From positions 1-4,709 of IMG/VR virus record IMGVR_UViG_2690316142_000012: DNA of 4,709 nt. One strand, given 5' to 3'. Positions 1 to 4,709 of the stretch are shown here, in pieces (positions within the stretch are counted from its first letter, which is position 1; each line of letters opens with the position of its first letter). The notes below the pieces were generated by a model. The model searched no databases and was not told where the DNA came from. It saw only the letters and a program-made list of their open reading frames with translations. The position numbers were made by a program, and so were the translations under genes. This stretch comes from a virus. Taxonomy: Duplodnaviria > Heunggongvirae > Uroviricota > Caudoviricetes.

Positions 1-30
1 TCTTAAGTCCAAACGGACAGGAGATTTAAA

Positions 31-324
31 ATGAAATTCACTTCAACCACGAATCATGTTTTCACATTCGAACGAGTAACGCTTTGCACGATTGTTCTTA
101 TTCATAAGGATACGGGACAACAGTATGTTGTCATATTTACGGATAACAATAAAATTCGTGACTATAAGACCGGAATTGTTTCTCAGTTTGGTGAACTTAA
201 GCAGAGTGATATTGATTTAATTCTTTTCTATCGGGACGAATATGAAAAATATTTTGACTCGTTAAATAATGGCGAGGAGTATTTGAGTTTTAAAGAATAT
301 ATCGGATGTATAAGGGGAAAATAA
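31..324 (+). CDS. hypothetical small protein (97 aa), no recognisable domain
   Basis: ATG at 31 preceded by AGGAG at 19..23 (7-nt spacing); uninterrupted 97-codon ORF; AT-rich codon usage typical of horizontally acquired morons; followed by further small ORFs and a terminator at 562..590. Confidence 0.6.
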   Translation: MKFTSTTNHVFTFERVTLCTIVLIHKDTGQQYVVIFTDNNKIRDYKTGIVSQFGELKQSDIDLILFYRDEYEKYFDSLNNGEEYLSFKEYIGCIRGK

Positions 325-327
325 ATT

Positions 328-387
328 ATGAAAGGTGTGTTCAGGTTGCTGGAACAACCTGAACACGTTATCGACAATCAAAACTGA
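328..387 (+). CDS. possible micro-ORF (19 aa, MKGVFRLLEQPEHVIDNQN)
   Basis: ATG at 328 lies 9 nt after AAGGGGA (312..318), 3 nt after the stop of the 97-aa gene; too short for the ORF track; coding status uncertain. Confidence 0.2.
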   Translation: MKGVFRLLEQPEHVIDNQN

Positions 388-400
388 ATGAGGTTTTTAA

Positions 401-538
401 ATGTCAACACGACAGATCGTACAGCTTGCTGACTCCCTTGTCAAAGGCTGGGAAACCAGAATTCCGGCAATGACGTGCACGGAGTGGGATCAATTCCGGT
501 GGTGGTTAAACTACCTGCAAGGGTATGAAATGTTTTAA
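401..538 (+). CDS. possible small protein (45 aa, Trp-rich: MSTRQIVQLADSLVKGWETRIPAMTCTEWDQFRWWLNYLQGYEMF)
   Basis: ATG at 401 preceded by GAGG at 390..393 (about 8-nt spacing); ORF ends at TAA 536..538, 24 nt before an intrinsic terminator hairpin; below the ORF-track size cutoff. Confidence 0.35.
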   Translation: MSTRQIVQLADSLVKGWETRIPAMTCTEWDQFRWWLNYLQGYEMF

Positions 539-561
539 ATAACCGGGATAAATTCATATAT

Positions 562-590
562 GGGGAGAGTGTCATGCTCTCCCTTTCTTA
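562..590 (+). terminator. intrinsic terminator for the plus-strand small-gene operon
   Basis: Stem GGGAGAG (563..569) / CTCTCCC (577..583) with 7-nt loop, followed by TTTCTTATT. Confidence 0.55.
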
Positions 591-608
591 TTGGGTAGCG
601 AGTTGTAT

Positions 609-657
609 TACATATTTAGCTTTACGTTGTAAAGATTTTATTGTCTTTACAGTGTGG
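609..657. repeat. bipartite palindromic element, copy 1 (CTTTAC-GTT-GTAAAG at 620..634, then CTTTACAGTGTGG at 645..657); candidate operator
   Basis: Perfect 6-bp inverted arms with 3-bp spacer; second half-element starts 16 bp after the first element ends; same architecture at copies 2 and 3; shares ATTACATA..AGCTTTAC lead-in with copy 2. Confidence 0.7.
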
Positions 658-735
658 TGCGTTTTCCGGCGGTTGCGCTGCGCTTAGGGGTATGTGGCTT
701 CGATGATCCAGGGTATTTCGACGTAATGCGTTGTA

Positions 736-1179
736 TTACGATGTATACTCTTTAATTGCTTGCAATCTCTTTTCACGTTCGTTGCTTTGTTGGGCCTTTT
801 CCAGTTGGCTGTATATGTACTCTTCATCTTTACCCGTGAGTATTGAGCCGGAGAGCAGACGATTAATAACTATACGTTTAATTTCTGGGTAATCTTTGGT
901 TTTATCGAGTATGGACAATATGTGGTCACTGCTAAGAATTATCCCACTCCATGAGTCTAAATAGCTCTTAAAAATCACAATCATAAACACACCGAAAAGC
1001 ATTATGATGATTGTTACCACATTAATGCTAAACGTTGATATAAAGGTATACGCGGCCACACCAATTATTGCTAAACAGAGACATAAATAAATGAAACCGA
1101 TTTTGTTGCGTTGCTTTTTTTCTGCACGATCATGATCATCTATGATTTCCAGTATCTTTTCTGGGATTAGTTGAGTCAT
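736..1179 (-). CDS. small membrane protein (147 aa), two predicted transmembrane helices, ~77-aa soluble C-terminal domain; function unknown
   Basis: ATG at 1177..1179 (minus) preceded by AAGGAA with ~5-nt spacing; two hydrophobic stretches (IGFIYLCLCLAIIGVAAYTFI and VVTIIIMLFGVFMIVIF) separated by a short loop; charged N- and C-termini. Confidence 0.7.
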   Translation of the reverse strand: MTQLIPEKILEIIDDHDRAEKKQRNKIGFIYLCLCLAIIGVAAYTFISTFSINVVTIIIMLFGVFMIVIFKSYLDSWSGIILSSDHILSILDKTKDYPEIKRIVINRLLSGSILTGKDEEYIYSQLEKAQQSNEREKRLQAIKEYTS

Positions 1180-1211
1180 TTTCTTTCCTTATTTGGGACA
1201 CGGAGTGTTTA

Positions 1212-1260
1212 ATTACATAGCTTTACATTGTAAATCTATGTTTGTCTTTACGATGTAAAT
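1212..1260. repeat. bipartite palindromic element, copy 2 (CTTTAC-ATT-GTAAAT at 1221..1235, CTTTAC-GAT-GTAAAT at 1246..1260); candidate operator over the membrane-gene promoter/leader
   Basis: Same 16-bp spacing between elements as copies 1 and 3; sits between the membrane-protein start codon (1179) and a candidate minus-strand promoter. Confidence 0.7.
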
Positions 1261-1287
1261 GATGAGATGTGCAGTTAAAAGTGTCAA
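1259..1287 (-). promoter_or_regulatory. candidate sigma70 promoter for the membrane-protein gene
   Basis: On the minus strand: perfect -35 TTGACA (plus 1282..1287), 17-bp spacer, -10 CATCAT (plus 1259..1264); the transcript would start inside repeat copy 2. Confidence 0.3.
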
Positions 1288-1359
1288 TCAGATATCATAT
1301 AGTAAAATACTATATTATTTTCTATGTATCACATACACAGCGATAAAACTGGATAAATG

Positions 1360-1397
1360 ACTTACACTGTAAAGATTGAGCTGTCTTTACAGTGTGG
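1360..1397. repeat. bipartite palindromic element, copy 3 (ACTTAC-ACT-GTAAAG at 1360..1374, CTTTACAGTGTGG at 1385..1397); upstream of the hicA promoter
   Basis: Second half identical to that of copy 1 (CTTTACAGTGTGG); same 16-bp spacing. Confidence 0.65.
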
Positions 1398-1423
1398 TTC
1401 ATAAGGCATACGAATGAAATAAT

Positions 1424-1452
1424 TTGCCTTTGTGTGTATGCGTGTGTATAAT
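1424..1452 (+). promoter_or_regulatory. candidate sigma70 promoter of hicAB
   Basis: -35 TTGCCT (1424..1429), 17-bp spacer, consensus -10 TATAAT (1447..1452), about 24 nt upstream of the hicA ATG; spacer is an alternating purine-pyrimidine tract (TGTGTGTATGCGTGTG). Confidence 0.5.
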
Positions 1453-1475
1453 TATCCTCAGGTTAGGGAGGACAT

Positions 1476-1658
1476 ATGAAATCTGCTGACCTGTTGAAAG
1501 AACTGATAGCTGCTGGTTGCGAGTTGAAACGGCATAAGGCAAGCAGTCACCAGATATGGTGGTCGCCAATAACAGGAAAAACTTTTCCTGTTCCTCATCC
1601 TAAAAAGGACTTGCCGCTAGGTACTGTCAGATCGATCAAAAAAATGGCGGGGATTTAA
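1476..1658 (+). CDS. hicA: HicA-family type II toxin (mRNA interferase), 60 aa
   Basis: GGGAGG RBS 4 nt upstream of ATG; protein has HicA hallmarks: small size, a His-containing segment (SSHQIW) and the characteristic C-terminal PHPKKDLPLGTVRSIKKMAG motif; immediately followed by a HicB-like gene. Confidence 0.9.
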   Translation: MKSADLLKELIAAGCELKRHKASSHQIWWSPITGKTFPVPHPKKDLPLGTVRSIKKMAGI

Positions 1659-1666
1659 TCCCCGCC
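1646..1666 (+). other. perfect 9-bp stem hairpin spanning the hicA stop codon (GGCGGGGAT-tta-ATCCCCGCC)
   Basis: Inverted repeat read directly; hicA TAA stop (1656..1658) sits in the loop; no T-run follows, so not a simple terminator; 7 nt upstream of the hicB RBS. Confidence 0.5.
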
Positions 1667-1682
1667 GACTTTGGAGGTAGCC

Positions 1683-2120
1683 ATGTTCTTTTCTGTTGGT
1701 GTCGAAACACCGAAAGATGATCATACAGCATACGGTATCACCGTTCCGGTTTTTGATTGCTTTGATTTTGGATGTGTTTCTGCTGCTGATTCTCAGGCAG
1801 AAATACCCGCAATGGCGCGTGAAGCGATATTGGCAATCGTGGAAGAGATGGTAATAAGCGGTGCTCATTCTGTTGATGATATTCATGATGAAGGGTGTTT
1901 GACTTATTCCGCCAACCCAAATTATAACCACTGTGATAGCTGGTTTGTAATTGATGTTGATTTGTCAGAAATTGAGGGCAAACAACAACGTATTAATATT
2001 TCATTGCCTGATGTATTGATTCGTCGTATTGATGGATATGTGAGAGAAAGTGGTGGCGTATACAAAGATCGTAGCCATTTTCTGGCTCAGGCGGCACGTC
2101 ATGAACTTGCATATAAATAA
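1683..2120 (+). CDS. hicB: HicB-family type II antitoxin (145 aa) with C-terminal ribbon-helix-helix DNA-binding domain
   Basis: ATG at 1683 with GGAGG (1673..1677) 5 nt upstream (ORF track extends to a TTG at 1671); N-terminal HicB-like region and C-terminal RINISLPDVLIRRIDGYV...RSHFLAQAARHEL typical of RHH (CopG-like) domains; directly downstream of hicA. Confidence 0.85.
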   Translation: MFFSVGVETPKDDHTAYGITVPVFDCFDFGCVSAADSQAEIPAMAREAILAIVEEMVISGAHSVDDIHDEGCLTYSANPNYNHCDSWFVIDVDLSEIEGKQQRINISLPDVLIRRIDGYVRESGGVYKDRSHFLAQAARHELAYK

Positions 2121-2124
2121 AACT

Positions 2125-2152
2125 ATCCCCGCGTTGTGCGGGGATTTTTTTT
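2125..2152 (+). terminator. strong intrinsic terminator after hicB, probably bidirectional
   Basis: Perfect 8-bp GC-rich stem ATCCCCGC (2125..2132) / GCGGGGAT (2138..2145), 5-nt loop, then T8 (2145..2152); on the minus strand the same hairpin is followed by AGTTTTATTTAT, so it may also end the convergent minus-strand operon. Confidence 0.8.
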
Positions 2153-2159
2153 GATAGCT

Positions 2160-2221
2160 AACCGCTCGCCGCAGTCCAGCGACCGAGCATAGCGAGCGAG
2201 TGACGAGGAAGCGGAAGATCC
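2160..2221. other. segment resembling ColE1/pMB1-type plasmid backbone sequence (origin-proximal region of pBR322/pUC)
   Basis: From memory of the pUC/pBR322 sequence (ACCGCTCGCCGCAGCCGAACGACCGAGCGCAGCGAGTCAGTGAGCGAGGAAGCGGAAGA): the window has ACCGCTCGCCGCAG..CGACCGAGC..AGCGAG..CGAGGAAGCGGAAGA in the same order; roughly 80-85 percent identity by eye, not computed. Confidence 0.45.
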
Positions 2222-2250
2222 ACCGTTGCCAGGAGAAAAGCAGGTACGCA

Positions 2251-2571
2251 CTATGCGTTCTGCCCTAGTGATGCTTTCACAAACCACGCAGCCTGAACTA
2301 TTACGCCATGAATCCAGCGCAAATCGGCATCACGATTTTCTTTTTTCATTTTTTCGCCACTTAAAGCCTTGCTTACGTGACTTTTTACCAGATTTTCGTG
2401 TAATTCTTTTGCTTCTTCAATTGTGAAACCACCAGGCAAATTTGGCGCTTCTGCTTCCAGCGATGCCAGTGCGATTTCATAAGCCCGACGCTCAATATTG
2501 TCTCGGACGTCCAGGCTGCCTATACGCTCTCTGATTTCTTTAATCAGTTCTTTGTCGGTTAAAGTGGTCAT
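2251..2571 (-). CDS. hypothetical prophage early-region protein (106 aa); N-terminal module shared with the 136-aa protein
   Basis: ATG overlaps the stop of the upstream 171-aa gene (ATGA); AAGGAA RBS 7 nt upstream; shares the motif IALASLEAEA and a 19-nt nucleotide identity with gene 3385..3795. Confidence 0.7.
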   Translation of the reverse strand: MTTLTDKELIKEIRERIGSLDVRDNIERRAYEIALASLEAEAPNLPGGFTIEEAKELHENLVKSHVSKALSGEKMKKENRDADLRWIHGVIVQAAWFVKASLGQNA

Positions 2572-3083
2572 GCTGCGTTTCCTTCTTTCTTATTAACAAT
2601 TACACCGTCATATATTTCATTAAGGTGTCCTCTTAGCTCCATGCGCCTTAATGCAGATAACATGTAATCGCATTCAACCTGCTTATTCCCAGTAAATGGC
2701 TTATCGTCAGGATTACCCCAACAGCAATTACCCCTGGGCCATCCATGTACTTTCCGTACTCTTCCGTTAACAACGTGAAGTAATCCCCAGCCGGGAGGTA
2801 AATCCTCAACTGAAATAATTTCCGGCTCACTAATAAAGAATCGCCAGTCGCCCATGCCAAGTGAGGGATTTTTACGGAAACGCTTTTTTCTATCTGCCAA
2901 CAAGTCAGCACGAGAACACTTCGCCTCTATCAGGCATGATGCTGAATTTCTGAATCCCATAGCATCTGGCTGTTCTCCGGTACTGGTTACAGCAACAAAG
3001 CGGTCATGAAAGCAAACCTTGAACCCGTTGCGCTTAAGGAACTTGTACGCAATCTGACAGAGTTCGTGGTGTGTTAACGCCAT
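2568..3083 (-). CDS. PD-(D/E)xK nuclease-like protein (171 aa), possibly MmcB-like; tentative
   Basis: Start at ATG 3081..3083 (MALTHHELCQ) preceded by GGGAAAGGAAAGTGAT; motif order E...PD(AMGF)...(L)IEAK(CS) matches the PD-(D/E)xK nuclease core; the ORF-track N-terminal extension (MGKESD) is probably not translated. Confidence 0.7.
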   Translation of the reverse strand: MALTHHELCQIAYKFLKRNGFKVCFHDRFVAVTSTGEQPDAMGFRNSASCLIEAKCSRADLLADRKKRFRKNPSLGMGDWRFFISEPEIISVEDLPPGWGLLHVVNGRVRKVHGWPRGNCCWGNPDDKPFTGNKQVECDYMLSALRRMELRGHLNEIYDGVIVNKKEGNAA

Positions 3084-3119
3084 ATCACTTTCCTTTCCCA
3101 TGTTGTCATGTGTTAGTCC

Positions 3120-3383
3120 TTATCCTGCTGTGCTTTCAACTGATGAGGGGAATAAAATCTTTTCATCAAATCCGGCATTCATATCATGGACAGCAACACA
3201 CCAATCCATCGACGAACGATTATCAAGAGCCTCCATGATTTCATCCATGCGGCGCAGGTCATACAGGTAAATGCTTTTATCGCCAATGGTGTAAAAACCA
3301 ATTTTTTTCGGTGATGGGCAGCGATCAAGAACGTCCTGTAATTCGTTCAACCATGCCCGTTCTTTTTTTGTTAAAGTTGCCAT
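3120..3383 (-). CDS. hypothetical prophage early-region protein (87 aa)
   Basis: Start at ATG 3381..3383 (MATLTKKERAW) preceded by AAAGGAGAGTGAT; the upstream gene's stop lies 1 nt before this ATG (TGA-T-ATG); the longer ORF in the track is an out-of-frame read-through of the upstream gene's 3' end. Confidence 0.7.
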   Translation of the reverse strand: MATLTKKERAWLNELQDVLDRCPSPKKIGFYTIGDKSIYLYDLRRMDEIMEALDNRSSMDWCVAVHDMNAGFDEKILFPSSVESTAG

Positions 3384-3396
3384 ATCACTCTCCTTT
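3242..3396. repeat. 155-bp exact direct repeat, copy 1 (identical to 4555..4709)
   Basis: Base-by-base identity read from the sequence; covers the RBS and first 47 codons of the 87-aa gene; left boundary is sharp (3241 T versus 4554 A). Confidence 0.95.
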
Positions 3397-3795
3397 CCCA
3401 TGAAGCATAGCGGCGCGGCAGGCGTTCCAGCCTGTAGCGTATGCAGCCGCTTTGCTGCTGCCTTCAACTGGCGCATCCTGCCAATACATTTCATCCGGCA
3501 CTACCGGCGCTGGCAAGGCTGCGTGATAGTAGAGTGGCATAGTTTTGTACAGTGGTTCGCCAGGACTTCCGTCAACCTGATTCCATTCTTCAACCCAGGC
3601 ATCAACAACCGCTTTGCTGGTTGATACATGTTCTTCTGAATCTACATTTTGTCCTGATATACAGAACATAACTGCCTCTGCTTCCAGCGATGCCAGAGCA
3701 ATTCGTGCCAGTTCCATTTGTTCGCCACGAGTAAGTCCGTTATCAAGCGGATTTTTAATGAATAATTTGATACGTTCTTTGGTTATAGCGTTCAT
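3385..3795 (-). CDS. hypothetical prophage early-region protein (136 aa); N-terminal module shared with the 106-aa protein
   Basis: Start at ATG 3793..3795 (MNAITKERIK) preceded by AAGGAGAGTGAG; the upstream 203-aa gene's stop lies 1 nt before it (TGA-G-ATG); contains ELARIALASLEAEA. Confidence 0.7.
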   Translation of the reverse strand: MNAITKERIKLFIKNPLDNGLTRGEQMELARIALASLEAEAVMFCISGQNVDSEEHVSTSKAVVDAWVEEWNQVDGSPGEPLYKTMPLYYHAALPAPVVPDEMYWQDAPVEGSSKAAAYATGWNACRAAMLHGKGE

Positions 3796-3796
3796 C

Positions 3797-4408
3797 TCAC
3801 TCTCCTTTGATGCGAATGCCAGTAGCGCGGATTGCATCGATGACTTCAGAAACTTTGTATGCCATTACCGTTTGGTAATCATCGTGAAAATCTGTTCGAT
3901 GAAGCATGCTGCTACGTTCCGGGAGCGATATTTCCCGAGCATCCAGTTCCTTAACGCGCTCCTCCAGTTCGTAGACCCTGCATTGTTCTCTATCATCAAT
4001 CAGATATAACCCAAGACATTCGCTTTCTACCCAACCGCCAAAATCATGATCGTAACGCTCACATGAAAACTCACCGTCACCGTCCTTTGTTGGAATGGTG
4101 TAACTATCTAATGGGCCACCATATGTCGGCACATTTCCCAATGTTGGATGCTCAATCCACATGAAAAATGCACGTCCGGTTATTGGGCAAATATCTGGCC
4201 GCCATTGGTTACGAACAGCCTTGGTTTCGGATAATTCTTCAGCGTGTTGTTTTACTTCCTCAAGCTCGTATCGCTTCAGGTTTGCGATATTTGATAAATT
4301 CAGCGCCAGTACAGCCAGGTCATAAACCTCTTCGGCAGTGACATCGCTGTTCAGTCCCATTTCATGGCGATATATGATTTTTTCTACTCGTTGTTTTGTG
4401 ATCGTCAT
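3797..4408 (-). CDS. hypothetical prophage early-region protein (203 aa); possibly ead/Ea22-like, unverified
   Basis: Longest ORF in the operon; preferred start ATG at 4406..4408 (MTITKQRVEK) with GGAG 11 nt upstream; ORF track extends to a TTG at 4432; ends KGE-stop within the RBS of the next gene. Confidence 0.65.
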   Translation of the reverse strand: MTITKQRVEKIIYRHEMGLNSDVTAEEVYDLAVLALNLSNIANLKRYELEEVKQHAEELSETKAVRNQWRPDICPITGRAFFMWIEHPTLGNVPTYGGPLDSYTIPTKDGDGEFSCERYDHDFGGWVESECLGLYLIDDREQCRVYELEERVKELDAREISLPERSSMLHRTDFHDDYQTVMAYKVSEVIDAIRATGIRIKGE

Positions 4409-4516
4409 TTTTCTCTTCACTCCGATATACAAGGATTACCACACCCCCTCTGCTGATTGCGCGAGCTGGATCCCCTGGTTCCATGCCGTCAATTCCGAAG
4501 GCTTCGGAAAACGCAT

Positions 4517-4696
4517 TCATTGCCTTCTGGCGTTCATCCTGCTTACGGCGTTTACATCCATGCGGCGCAGGTCATACAGGTAAATGCTTTTATCGCCAAT
4601 GGTGTAAAAACCAATTTTTTTCGGTGATGGGCAGCGATCAAGAACGTCCTGTAATTCGTTCAACCATGCCCGTTCTTTTTTTGTTAAAGTTGCCAT
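4517..4696 (-). pseudogene. truncated chimeric duplicate of the 87-aa gene (first 47 codons identical, then 12 unrelated codons and a stop; 59 aa)
   Basis: Lies in copy 2 of the 155-bp repeat; translation from ATG 4694..4696 gives MATLTKKERAWLNELQDVLDRCPSPKKIGFYTIGDKSIYLYDLRRMD then VNAVSRMNARRQ-stop; the preceding 4698..4709 encodes a KGE-stop gene end as at 3385 and 3797. Confidence 0.4.
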
Positions 4697-4709
4697 ATCA
4701 CTCTCCTTT
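4555..4709. repeat. 155-bp exact direct repeat, copy 2 (identical to 3242..3396); continues to the window edge
   Basis: Offset of exactly 1313 bp from copy 1; true extent unknown because the window ends. Confidence 0.95.

What the first reader, a model, noticed from the sequence alone, without database searches (positions are those of the whole stretch)
2568..3083. PD-(D/E)xK nuclease-like gene embedded in the early operon
The 171-aa product has the motif order of a PD-(D/E)xK restriction-endonuclease-like fold (an early Glu, then PD in EQPDAMGF, then IEAK), plus a Cys/Trp/Gly-rich C-terminal half of unknown function. Its stop overlaps the next gene's start (ATGA), implying co-expression. Small nucleases of this fold in phage early regions may serve recombination or repair, anti-defence, or act as a defence effector. 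The family call rests on motif reading only.
Basis: partly seen in the sequence, partly recalled or inferred. Interest (0 to 1): 0.5.

Follow-up and report, generated by a model that had tools for sequence, protein, structure and literature searches.

The report
MmcB-like nuclease gene on plasmid
The gene is real and encodes a small DNA-cutting enzyme related to the bacterial repair protein MmcB; it sits in the part of a conjugative plasmid inferred to enter a new cell first, is shared with many phages, and has never been studied experimentally.

Summary

Two points need correction. The C-terminal half is part of the MmcB-like fold, not a separate Cys-rich module, and its cysteines are not conserved. 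The window is an IncI2 conjugative plasmid, not a phage: the gene lies in an operon that runs away from the relaxase/oriT region.

The same gene is P7 upf89.0. It also occurs in Stx phage ea22 regions, after psiB-psiA in IncF leading regions, and next to ssb, rdgC, ninB/ninG, rusA or primase genes elsewhere. Samuel et al. 2024 list the family as an unknown family enriched in leading regions (FDR 7.7e-97).

Most likely it is a stand-alone Mg-dependent endonuclease that acts on the element's own DNA intermediates early after entry. Substrate and role are untested. It is a new, Pfam-invisible branch of a known kind, of moderate interest.

The parts
2568..3083 (-). Gene for a 171-aa MmcB-like PD-(D/E)xK nuclease, the orthologue of phage P7 upf89.0
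2964..2975 (-). Codons for E37-Q-P39-D40. D40 is the first catalytic acidic residue, placed just before strand 2.
   Evidence: D40 63/63, P39 61/63, E37 62/63 in alignment A2. D40 invariant in 10 very diverse members including a true MmcB. Strand 2 spans residues 41-45. Coordinates.
2919..2927 (-). Codons for E53-A54-K55, the (D/E)xK motif at the end of strand 3
   Evidence: E53 62/63 and K55 62/63. Both invariant in A4. Strand 3 spans residues 48-54.
2883..2915 (-). Codons for S57-R58-x-D60-(F/L)-x-x-D64-x-x-K67, the helix-2 signature shared with MmcB proteins (SRADFxxD)
   Evidence: S57 58/63, R58 56/63, D60 63/63, D64 62/63, K67 62/63. Aligned to ECKSSRADFQAD of 3dnx.
2643..2789 (-). C-terminal half: W99-G-L-L strand, variable loop 114-133 (holds the non-conserved CC), and helix 134-150 with E137 and R146-R147. 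It is part of the same fold, not an extra domain.
   Evidence: Secondary structure. hhalign aligns residues up to 150 with MmcB. W99 62/63, G100 60/63, L101 62/63, E137 62/63, R146 58/63, R147 57/63; C120, C121 and C138 variable.
3079..3099 (-). Conserved junction and ribosome-binding sequence GGGAAAGGAAAGTGATATGGC that carries the start codon. The same sequence precedes the upstream gene at 3379-3399.
   Evidence: Two exact or near-exact copies against 0 expected. Read.
3120..3383 (-). Upstream gene of the same operon (87 aa, PHROG 1714, unknown function), 36 nt before the nuclease start
   Evidence: Annotated as WP_000224227.1 in pEc42_3.
2251..2571 (-). Downstream gene (106 aa, Ea22-like N-terminal module), start overlapping the nuclease stop (ATGA)
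   Evidence: This partner is not conserved in other contexts.
2125..2145 (.). Bidirectional terminator-like hairpin that ends the minus-strand operon and the convergent hicAB genes
   Evidence: No minus-strand promoter-like site was found in 2000-4709.

Best explanation
The gene encodes a stand-alone, metal-dependent DNA endonuclease. It belongs to a mobile-element branch of the MmcB-like family (PD-(D/E)xK fold; catalytic D40, E53, K55, probably helped by E37, the acidic residue at position 27, and H5).

In this window it is one cistron of a tightly packed operon of an IncI2 conjugative plasmid. That operon is transcribed away from the mobC/relaxase-oriT region, like the leader operon of RP4. 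It is therefore inferred to lie in the DNA that enters a recipient first and to be expressed early.

By analogy with MmcB (an SOS-induced nuclease needed to survive DNA cross-links), and from its recurrent neighbours in plasmids and phages (ssb, psiB-psiA, rdgC, ninB/ninG, rusA, primase/helicase, orphan methyltransferases), the most likely role is to cut a particular DNA structure or lesion in the element's own incoming or replicating DNA. Candidates are a single-strand/double-strand junction, a fork, a D-loop or flap, or a damaged site. Cutting would let replication, recombination or repair proceed and the element establish itself.

Shown: the ORF, purifying selection, the fold, homology to MmcB, conservation of the active site, and the genomic contexts. 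Inferred: nuclease activity, early expression after transfer, the DNA substrate, and the benefit to establishment.
For: Fold and family:
- No Pfam or NCBIfam hit for the protein itself.
- AF2 model pLDDT 95.2.
- 3dnx is the only significant Foldseek PDB hit, E 5.3e-6.
- 3dnx is DUF1052/PF06319 (PMC3424549).
- Family profile against PDB sequences: 3dnx E 5.5e-5.
- hhalign against 24 PF06319-annotated MmcB proteins: probability 98.3%, E 2.6e-14, residues 8-150.
- Viral structure hits are named 'MmcB family DNA repair protein'.

Active site: D40 63/63, E53 62/63, K55 62/63. These residues are invariant across IncF, Pseudomonas plasmid, Vibrio phage, Vi01, prophage and true MmcB sequences.

Selection: dN/dS 0.08-0.09.

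Context:
- IncI2 plasmid with MOBP relaxase. The operon starts next to mobC/relaxase with a TraL gene.
- IncF homologue directly after psiB-psiA, between ssb and hok, in the classical leading region.
- Pseudomonas plasmid copy with rdgC, a C5-methyltransferase and ssb.
- Prophage copies next to SSB, RdgC, NinB/NinG and Dam/Lar/RusA.
- Virulent phage copies next to primase or helicases.
- P7 copy in a C1-operator-controlled operon.
- Published statistics: family 165 ('YraN family; Upf89.0'), 325 members, enriched in leading regions, FDR 7.7e-97, strand 1 (PMC11541004 supplementary table).

MmcB is described as a PD-(D/E)XK endonuclease that protects against mitomycin C and cisplatin (PMC9578287).
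Against: - No biochemical or genetic data exist for any member of this branch (literature searches).
- Even MmcB's substrate is only hypothesised.
- The window protein does not reach the Pfam PF06319 model at all, so transfer of function from MmcB is distant (25-30% identity).
- Neighbour association is qualitative, from about 15 loci inspected by hand.
- The same neighbourhoods are also rich in anti-restriction and anti-SOS genes, so context does not separate a DNA-processing helper from an anti-defence factor.
- In the IncI2 context the gene points away from oriT, so it is probably not transcribed from the incoming single strand as the classical F leading genes are.
- oriT and nic were not mapped here.
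Confidence: 0.55

Rival explanations
1. Anti-defence nuclease. The enzyme is made early after entry and destroys or disables a host immune component made of nucleic acid, for example defence-generated DNA such as retron or reverse-transcriptase products, a guide or signal, or host DNA ends that trigger immunity. This would protect the incoming plasmid or phage.
For: The family is statistically enriched in plasmid leading regions, where anti-defence genes cluster, and has the same strand bias as those genes. It sits beside orphan methyltransferases, Lar, psiB/psiA and toxin-antitoxin genes. It also lies in phage early accessory regions such as ea22 and the P7 C1-controlled operon. It behaves as a mobile cassette with conserved junction sequences.
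Against: Samuel et al. found no sequence or structure match to known anti-CRISPR or anti-restriction proteins (325 of 325 'NA'). In virulent phages and many prophages the gene lies inside replication or recombination modules rather than accessory islands. Its closest characterised relative is a repair protein. I know of no precedent for an MmcB-like anti-defence enzyme (own knowledge; none found).
Confidence: 0.2
2. Holliday-junction or branched-DNA resolvase of the Hjc type. It would act as a dimer that resolves recombination or replication intermediates, as RusA, Rap (NinG), T7 endonuclease I and archaeal Hjc do.
For: 36 of 63 relatives give weak Pfam Hjc hits (best E 1.3e-4). Hjc chains appear as weak profile and fold hits. 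The 13-residue spacing between D40 and E53 is as I recall for Hjc (own knowledge, not checked here). The gene lies in the nin region between replication genes and Q in several prophages.
Confidence: 0.12
3. Defence or exclusion effector. The nuclease would attack competing incoming DNA (superinfecting phages or plasmids) or the host chromosome, as an abortive-infection or exclusion toxin.
For: PD-(D/E)xK domains are common defence effectors (Cap4, Can2, restriction enzymes; fold hits). The gene lies among variable cassettes and next to hicAB.
Against: There is no PADLOC hit for it or its neighbours at a meaningful score. No sensor, regulator or immunity partner is conserved: the upstream and downstream genes differ in every context. 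It is present in virulent phage replication modules. Such a small single-domain protein has no obvious way to tell self from non-self DNA.
Confidence: 0.05
4. Catalytically inactive DNA-binding protein that has kept the nuclease fold.
For: Inactive PD-(D/E)xK homologues are known in the superfamily (PMC3424549).
Against: All three catalytic positions are kept in 62-63 of 63 diverse relatives and across very distant members. That is not expected for an inactivated scaffold.
Confidence: 0.03

Closest known systems
MmcB / DUF1052 family (Pfam PF06319, COG5321; structure 3dnx, SPO1766 of Ruegeria pomeroyi; founding member Caulobacter crescentus MmcB)
   Different: Only 25-30% identity, and the Pfam model does not detect the window protein at all. 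This branch has its own conserved features: H5, E37, and a basic insertion K66-K67-x-F-R-x-x-P-x-x-G-M-G that MmcB lacks. MmcB proteins are chromosomal and mostly alphaproteobacterial, and the Caulobacter founding member is SOS-regulated. This branch is carried by plasmids, phages and prophages, mainly of Gammaproteobacteria.
Phage P7 Upf89.0 and 'family 165' of Samuel et al. 2024 (unknown families enriched in plasmid leading regions)
   Same: Orthologue: 171 aa, about 97% identical, with the same neighbours of Ead/Ea22 type. Family 165 is named 'YraN family / Upf89.0 / adenylosuccinate synthase', the same labels that databases give to this protein's relatives.
   Different: Nothing functional is known for either. 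P7 expresses it from a C1-repressed operon of a phage-plasmid, whereas here it sits in the oriT-proximal operon of a conjugative plasmid.
Archaeal Hjc, and phage junction or structure-specific nucleases of the nin region (RusA, Rap/NinG)
   Same: Hjc shares the superfamily, and by my recollection the D-13-ExK spacing (own knowledge, not checked here); relatives give weak Hjc profile hits. The gene shares the genomic niche of RusA and NinG in lambdoid prophages.
   Different: Structural similarity to Hjc is weak. RusA and NinG have different folds (own knowledge). The gene co-occurs with them rather than replacing them.
YraN / UPF0102 (the name UniRef gives some members)
   Same: Small PD-(D/E)xK proteins of the Hjc-like group.
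   Different: The NCBIfam YraN models hit 5 of 63 relatives only weakly and do not hit the window protein. Pfam UPF0102 hits 2 of 63. The label is a weak automatic transfer.

Membership tests
PD-(D/E)xK nuclease superfamily | Core alpha-beta-beta-beta-alpha-beta fold | tested here: met
PD-(D/E)xK nuclease superfamily | Acidic residue at the start of strand 2 and (D/E)xK in strand 3, conserved among homologues | tested here: met
   D40 63/63, E53 62/63, K55 62/63. Invariant in A4.
PD-(D/E)xK nuclease superfamily | Metal-dependent phosphodiester cleavage | not testable with these tools
   Needs biochemistry.
MmcB-like (Pfam PF06319 / DUF1052) | Scores above the Pfam gathering threshold of PF06319 | tested here: not met
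   No Pfam hit even at E<=1. Only 20 of 63 relatives give weak hits, best E 2.9e-4.
MmcB-like (Pfam PF06319 / DUF1052) | Full-length homology to bona fide family members by profile-profile comparison | tested here: met
   hhalign A2 vs A3 (24 PF06319-annotated proteins): probability 98.3%, E 2.6e-14, 124 columns, residues 8-150.
MmcB-like (Pfam PF06319 / DUF1052) | Closest solved structure is the family representative 3dnx | tested here: met
MmcB-like (Pfam PF06319 / DUF1052) | Signature ExK-S-R-x-D-F-x-x-D after strand 3 | tested here: met
   IEAKCSRADLLAD aligns with IECKSSRADFQAD.
MmcB-like (Pfam PF06319 / DUF1052) | Role of the founding member: SOS-induced chromosomal gene giving resistance to cross-linking agents | not testable with these tools
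   Known only from Caulobacter genetics. Here the gene is on mobile elements.
Hjc-type Holliday junction resolvase (Pfam PF01870) | Significant sequence or structure match to Hjc | tested here: not met
Hjc-type Holliday junction resolvase (Pfam PF01870) | Acts as the element's junction resolvase, and so should be an alternative to RusA/NinG | tested here: not met
   Lies adjacent to RusA and to NinG in the same prophage operons.
YraN / UPF0102 | Match to the NCBIfam YraN or Pfam UPF0102 models | tested here: not met
   Window protein: none. 5 of 63 and 2 of 63 relatives hit weakly.
Plasmid leading-region (early establishment / anti-defence island) genes | Located in the DNA next to oriT on the side away from the relaxase | tested here: inconclusive
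   In pEc42_3 the gene lies 2.6-3.2 kb from the mobC-relaxase upstream intergenic region, on the side away from the relaxase, in an operon that starts with TraL-type genes. That intergenic region has repeats and inverted repeats. oriT, nic and the direction of transfer were not determined here; they are inferred from RP4 and R64.
Plasmid leading-region (early establishment / anti-defence island) genes | Family statistically enriched in leading regions | tested here: met
   Taken from the published table, not recomputed here: family 165, 325 members, p 3.3e-97, FDR 7.7e-97, strand 1, identified by the names Upf89.0 / YraN family. Checked by hand in two plasmids carrying the IncF-type leading region and one Pseudomonas plasmid.
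Plasmid leading-region (early establishment / anti-defence island) genes | Demonstrated anti-defence or establishment activity | not testable with these tools
   Needs conjugation assays.
Known anti-phage defence systems (PADLOC) | Match to a defence-system protein model | tested here: not met
   No hit at E<=0.1 for the nuclease. Neighbours give only chance-level hits.

The most novel reading that the evidence does not exclude
The family is a new class of counter-defence enzyme shared by conjugative plasmids and phages. It would be a small MmcB-like nuclease made immediately after DNA entry that specifically destroys a host immune nucleic acid, or an immune-triggering DNA structure on the invading element. 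This would explain why it is enriched in leading regions and phage early operons, next to anti-restriction and anti-SOS genes.
Probability: 0.15. Interest if true: 0.75.

Novelty: new member of a known kind. Interest (0 to 1): 0.4.

Why it matters
The family is large: 2553 clusters at 50% identity, 864 plasmid records and 642 phage records. No Pfam or NCBIfam model detects it, and RefSeq often mis-annotates it. It sits in the early-acting regions of clinically important plasmids: IncI2 (here seen carrying blaCTX-M-55; from my own knowledge also the mcr-1 backbone) and IncF leading regions right after psiB-psiA. It is also found in Stx-converting phages and P1/P7-like phage-plasmids. Assigning it to the MmcB-like nucleases, with named catalytic residues, turns an 'unknown leading-region family' into a directly testable enzyme. 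It could also give MmcB-type nucleases their first tractable biochemical model. If it aids plasmid establishment, it would be a target for limiting the spread of resistance plasmids.

Tried and rejected
- Direct Pfam, NCBIfam and PDB sequence searches with the single protein gave nothing useful. Only profiles and structure revealed the family.
- A separate Cys-rich or zinc-binding C-terminal domain is rejected: the cysteines are not conserved, and the region aligns with the MmcB fold.
- 'Phage early operon' as the source of this window is rejected. The left 2.2 kb (hicAB and a membrane protein gene) matched no phage record, and the best full-length matches are IncI2 plasmids.
- The RefSeq labels 'frameshifted pseudogene' (pEc42_3) and a 111-aa truncated CDS (pHN1122-1) are rejected. 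Both plasmids encode the intact 171-aa protein at 100% identity.
- The idea that the gene replaces RusA/NinG as a junction resolvase is weakened by direct co-occurrence with both.
- The defence-effector idea has no PADLOC support and no conserved partner (and the context calls).
- A two-gene system with the ATGA-coupled downstream gene is rejected, because that neighbour changes in every context.
- The afdb50 fold library was not available.
- The second homology search with the family profile listed only close family members, none with Pfam domains, so it added no link to other families.
- Literature searches for MmcB-like, YraN or leading-region functional data on this family found nothing.

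Full report
**Observation**

The window carries an ORF on the minus strand from ATG 3083 to TGA 2568, encoding 171 aa. An alternative in-frame ATG lies at 3101. Homologues begin at the MALTH position, and AGGA lies 9 nt upstream of 3083, so the 171-aa reading is preferred.

The stop overlaps the start of the next gene (2251-2571) as ATGA.

The ORF is a real gene:
- The exact sequence is in a 1363-member 90% cluster seen on more than 1000 contigs.
- 2553 cluster representatives at 50% identity match at E<=1e-3.
- dN/dS against the P7 and phage EC.W1-9 copies is 0.08-0.09.

**What the protein is**

Direct searches with the single sequence give no Pfam or NCBIfam family and no solved relative. 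They give only PHROGs of unknown function, plus one weak 'DNA repair protein' PHROG.

An alignment of 63 diverse relatives (A2) changes this:
- Its profile finds 3dnx_A (SPO1766) at E 5.5e-5 and Hjc chains weakly.
- Individual members give weak Pfam hits to Hjc (36 of 63) and MmcB-like PF06319 (20 of 63).

AlphaFold2 with this alignment gives a confident model (pLDDT 95.2, pTM 0.88) with the order helix, three strands, helix, strand.
- Foldseek finds 3dnx as the only significant PDB hit (E 5.3e-6).
- Among viral models, Foldseek finds several proteins named MmcB family DNA repair protein.
- 3dnx is the structure listed for DUF1052/PF06319/COG5321 (PMC3424549).

I then collected 24 PF06319-annotated MmcB proteins and compared the two family profiles. 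hhalign gives 98.3% probability, E 2.6e-14, over residues 8-150. The family is therefore a divergent branch of the MmcB-like nucleases that the Pfam model does not reach.

**Active site and the C-terminal half**

Conservation in A2:

| Position | Conservation |
|---|---|
| D40 | 63/63 |
| E53 | 62/63 |
| K55 | 62/63 |
| E37 | 62/63 |
| Position 27 (acidic) | 61/63 |
| H5 | 61/63 |
| E7, the 'early Glu' (acidic) | 46/63 |

D40, E53, K55, S57, R58, D60, D64, G76, R81, P96 and G100-L-L are invariant in ten very distant members. These include IncF, Pseudomonas plasmid, Vibrio phage MAR10, Vi01, three prophage proteins and a true MmcB.

The C-terminal half is not a separate module. It comprises strand 4, two further strands, a variable loop (114-133) and a helix (134-150). 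It aligns with MmcB and 3dnx up to the A-x-R-R helix. The cysteines (C9, C50, C56, C120, C121, C138) are not conserved, so there is no evidence for a metal-binding Cys cluster.

Features specific to this branch are H5, E37 and a basic insertion K66-K67-x-F-R-x-x-P that MmcB lacks.

**Where the window comes from**

Bases 1-3396 are 99.94% identical to E. coli plasmid pEc42_3. The best full-length matches are 57-65 kb plasmids. The two inspected, pEc42_3 and pHN1122-1, are typed IncI2, MOBP, MPF_T and conjugative. Phage records match only from about 2255 onward.

In pEc42_3 the gene lies in a minus-strand block that starts next to the mobC/relaxase genes. The order is: a 132-aa gene, a TraL-type NTPase, a 235-aa gene, Ea22-like cassettes, the nuclease, and a 106-aa gene. 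The block ends at a bidirectional terminator shared with the convergent hicAB genes.

No minus-strand promoter-like site lies within 2000-4709. Together with the overlapping or closely spaced cistrons, this fits co-transcription.

The layout resembles the leader operon of RP4, which diverges from oriT and enters first. That comparison, and therefore the 'leading region' status in IncI2, rests on established knowledge of MOBP plasmids. I did not map oriT or nic; the intergenic region has repeats and inverted repeats.

RefSeq annotates the gene wrongly as a 'frameshifted' fragment or as a 111-aa C-terminal piece. Both plasmids in fact encode the intact protein.

**Distribution and neighbours**

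The protein matches 864 plasmid records (411 conjugative; 407 non-mobilisable, several of about 90-100 kb, a size typical of P1/P7-like phage-plasmids) and 642 phage records.

| Element | Position of the gene |
|---|---|
| Phage P7 | upf89.0 (171 aa), in an operon with a C1 operator, with a primase-like gene and an Ead/Ea22-like gene |
| Lambdoid phage EC.W1-9 | After the replication genes, next to ea22 (Stx-converting phages carry 96-97% identical copies; their records are unannotated) |
| IncF-type leading regions (2 plasmids) | 67%-identical homologue starts at the stop of psiA, in the series ssb, parB-like, psiB, psiA, X, hok; followed in pESBL3153-IncF by oriT/traM |
| Pseudomonas MPF_I plasmid | With rdgC, a C5-methyltransferase, ssb and toxin-antitoxin genes |
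| Salmonella plasmid | After a Dam-type methylase |
| Prophages | After the replication genes |
| Lonsdalea prophage | Between NinB and NinG |
| Providencia prophage | Between Dam/Lar and RusA |
| Kushneria prophage | Close to RdgC (one gene between) |
| Cronobacter prophage | Next to an SSB fragment |
| Vibrio phage MAR10 | Next to helicases and polymerase |
| Salmonella phage Vi01 | Directly upstream of the gp61 primase |

The immediate partners differ in every context. The gene is therefore a self-contained cassette without a conserved partner.

Samuel et al. 2024 list a family named 'YraN family; Upf89.0; adenylosuccinate synthase' (family 165, 325 members) among 'other unknown leading families'. 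It has strand 1 and an enrichment FDR of 7.7e-97, and no match to known anti-CRISPR or anti-restriction proteins. These are the same labels that databases attach to this protein's relatives.

**Mechanism**

Shown: an intact, selected gene; an MmcB-like PD-(D/E)xK fold; a fully conserved catalytic triad; and recurrent placement in early-expressed DNA-handling regions of plasmids and phages.

Inferred: the protein is a metal-dependent DNA endonuclease. It is made soon after the element enters or starts replicating. It cuts a DNA structure or lesion on the element's own DNA so that replication, recombination or repair can proceed.

The analogy is to MmcB. MmcB is described as a PD-(D/E)XK endonuclease that protects Caulobacter from mitomycin C and cisplatin, and is thought to prepare cross-linked DNA for translesion synthesis (PMC9578287).

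The consistent company of proteins that handle single-stranded DNA and RecA (SSB, PsiB/PsiA, RdgC, NinB) fits a role at single-strand/double-strand junctions, forks or D-loops.

**Rivals**
- Anti-defence role: not excluded, because the same neighbourhoods are rich in anti-restriction and anti-SOS genes. There is no positive evidence for it, and the gene also lies inside the replication modules of virulent phages.
- Hjc-like junction resolvase: weakened by direct co-occurrence with RusA and NinG and by weak similarity to Hjc.
- Defence or exclusion effector: unlikely, with no PADLOC match and no conserved partner.
- Inactive scaffold: unlikely, given the conserved triad.

**Novelty and verdict**

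The gene has been in databases since the P7 genome as a protein of unknown function. Its family has been flagged as enriched in leading regions but left unannotated. I found no functional study.

What is added here:
- a firm assignment to the MmcB-like nucleases, with named catalytic residues;
- correction of the C-terminal-domain idea;
- correction of the element type, from phage to IncI2 plasmid;
- a cross-element context picture.

This is a new, Pfam-invisible branch of a known kind. It is of moderate interest as a testable early-function gene of resistance plasmids and phages.

Noticed in passing
window 620-634, 1221-1235, 1246-1260, 1360-1374: Four copies of a palindrome CTTTAC-N3-GTAAAG (8 strand-matches against 0.14 expected). 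They flank the 147-aa membrane-protein gene (736-1179, minus strand) and lie upstream of hicA. They look like operator sites for an unidentified regulator.
   Followed up: partly
window 3079-3099 and 3379-3399 (minus strand); cut copy at 4692-4709: The same 21-nt junction GGGAAAGGA(A/G)AGTGATATGGC, carrying the ribosome-binding site and start codon, precedes successive cassettes. It may be a recombination point for shuffling cassettes between plasmids and phages.
   Followed up: partly
window 3238-3396 and 4551-4709: A 159-bp direct repeat. The second copy gives a truncated duplicate (ORF 4517-4696) of the N-terminus of the 87-aa gene. The segment 3397-4550 between the repeats is absent from pEc42_3, so this window carries an extra cassette insertion.
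   Followed up: partly
window 1476-1658 and 1683-2120 (+): A hicA/hicB toxin-antitoxin pair, convergent with the nuclease operon and sharing its bidirectional terminator at 2125-2145. A HicB family is also among the leading-region families of Samuel et al. (family 311).
   Followed up: partly
window 2251-2571, 3385-3837, 3797-4432 (minus strand): Three neighbouring ORFs share an N-terminal module of about 50 residues, with different C-termini (PHROG 3323 hits all three; PHROGs 5117, 660 and 60 hit two). These are mosaic Ea22-like proteins of unknown function.
   Followed up: no
window 1-36; L001 4952-4987, 5682-5716, 7904-7939: A 35-36 nt sequence (TCTTAAGTCCAAACGGACAGGAGATTTAAAATGAAA) is repeated exactly in front of three different plus-strand genes of the plasmid. 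It may be a shared translation-initiation or regulatory element.
   Followed up: no
L001 10808-10986; L004 9306-9641; L013 4141-4656; hits H51, H126, H127: Public annotation of this gene is inconsistent or wrong. Labels include 'frameshifted' pseudogene, a 111-aa truncated CDS, 'minor tail protein' (P7 RefSeq), and 'adenylosuccinate synthase'. In hit H51 a 'valyl-tRNA synthetase' label lies under the match alongside a hypothetical protein.
   Followed up: yes
L001 13635-14002 (outside the window): The intergenic region between the operon and mobC holds a run of TGTGGG(T/C) repeats and two short inverted repeats. It is likely the oriT region of the IncI2 plasmid.
   Followed up: partly
L007 4980-5597 (Salmonella phage Vi01) and related Ackermannviridae: These virulent phages carry a version in which only the N-terminal part (about 110 residues) matches well and the C-terminal part is much more divergent. 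Its stop meets the start of the gp61 primase gene.
   Followed up: partly
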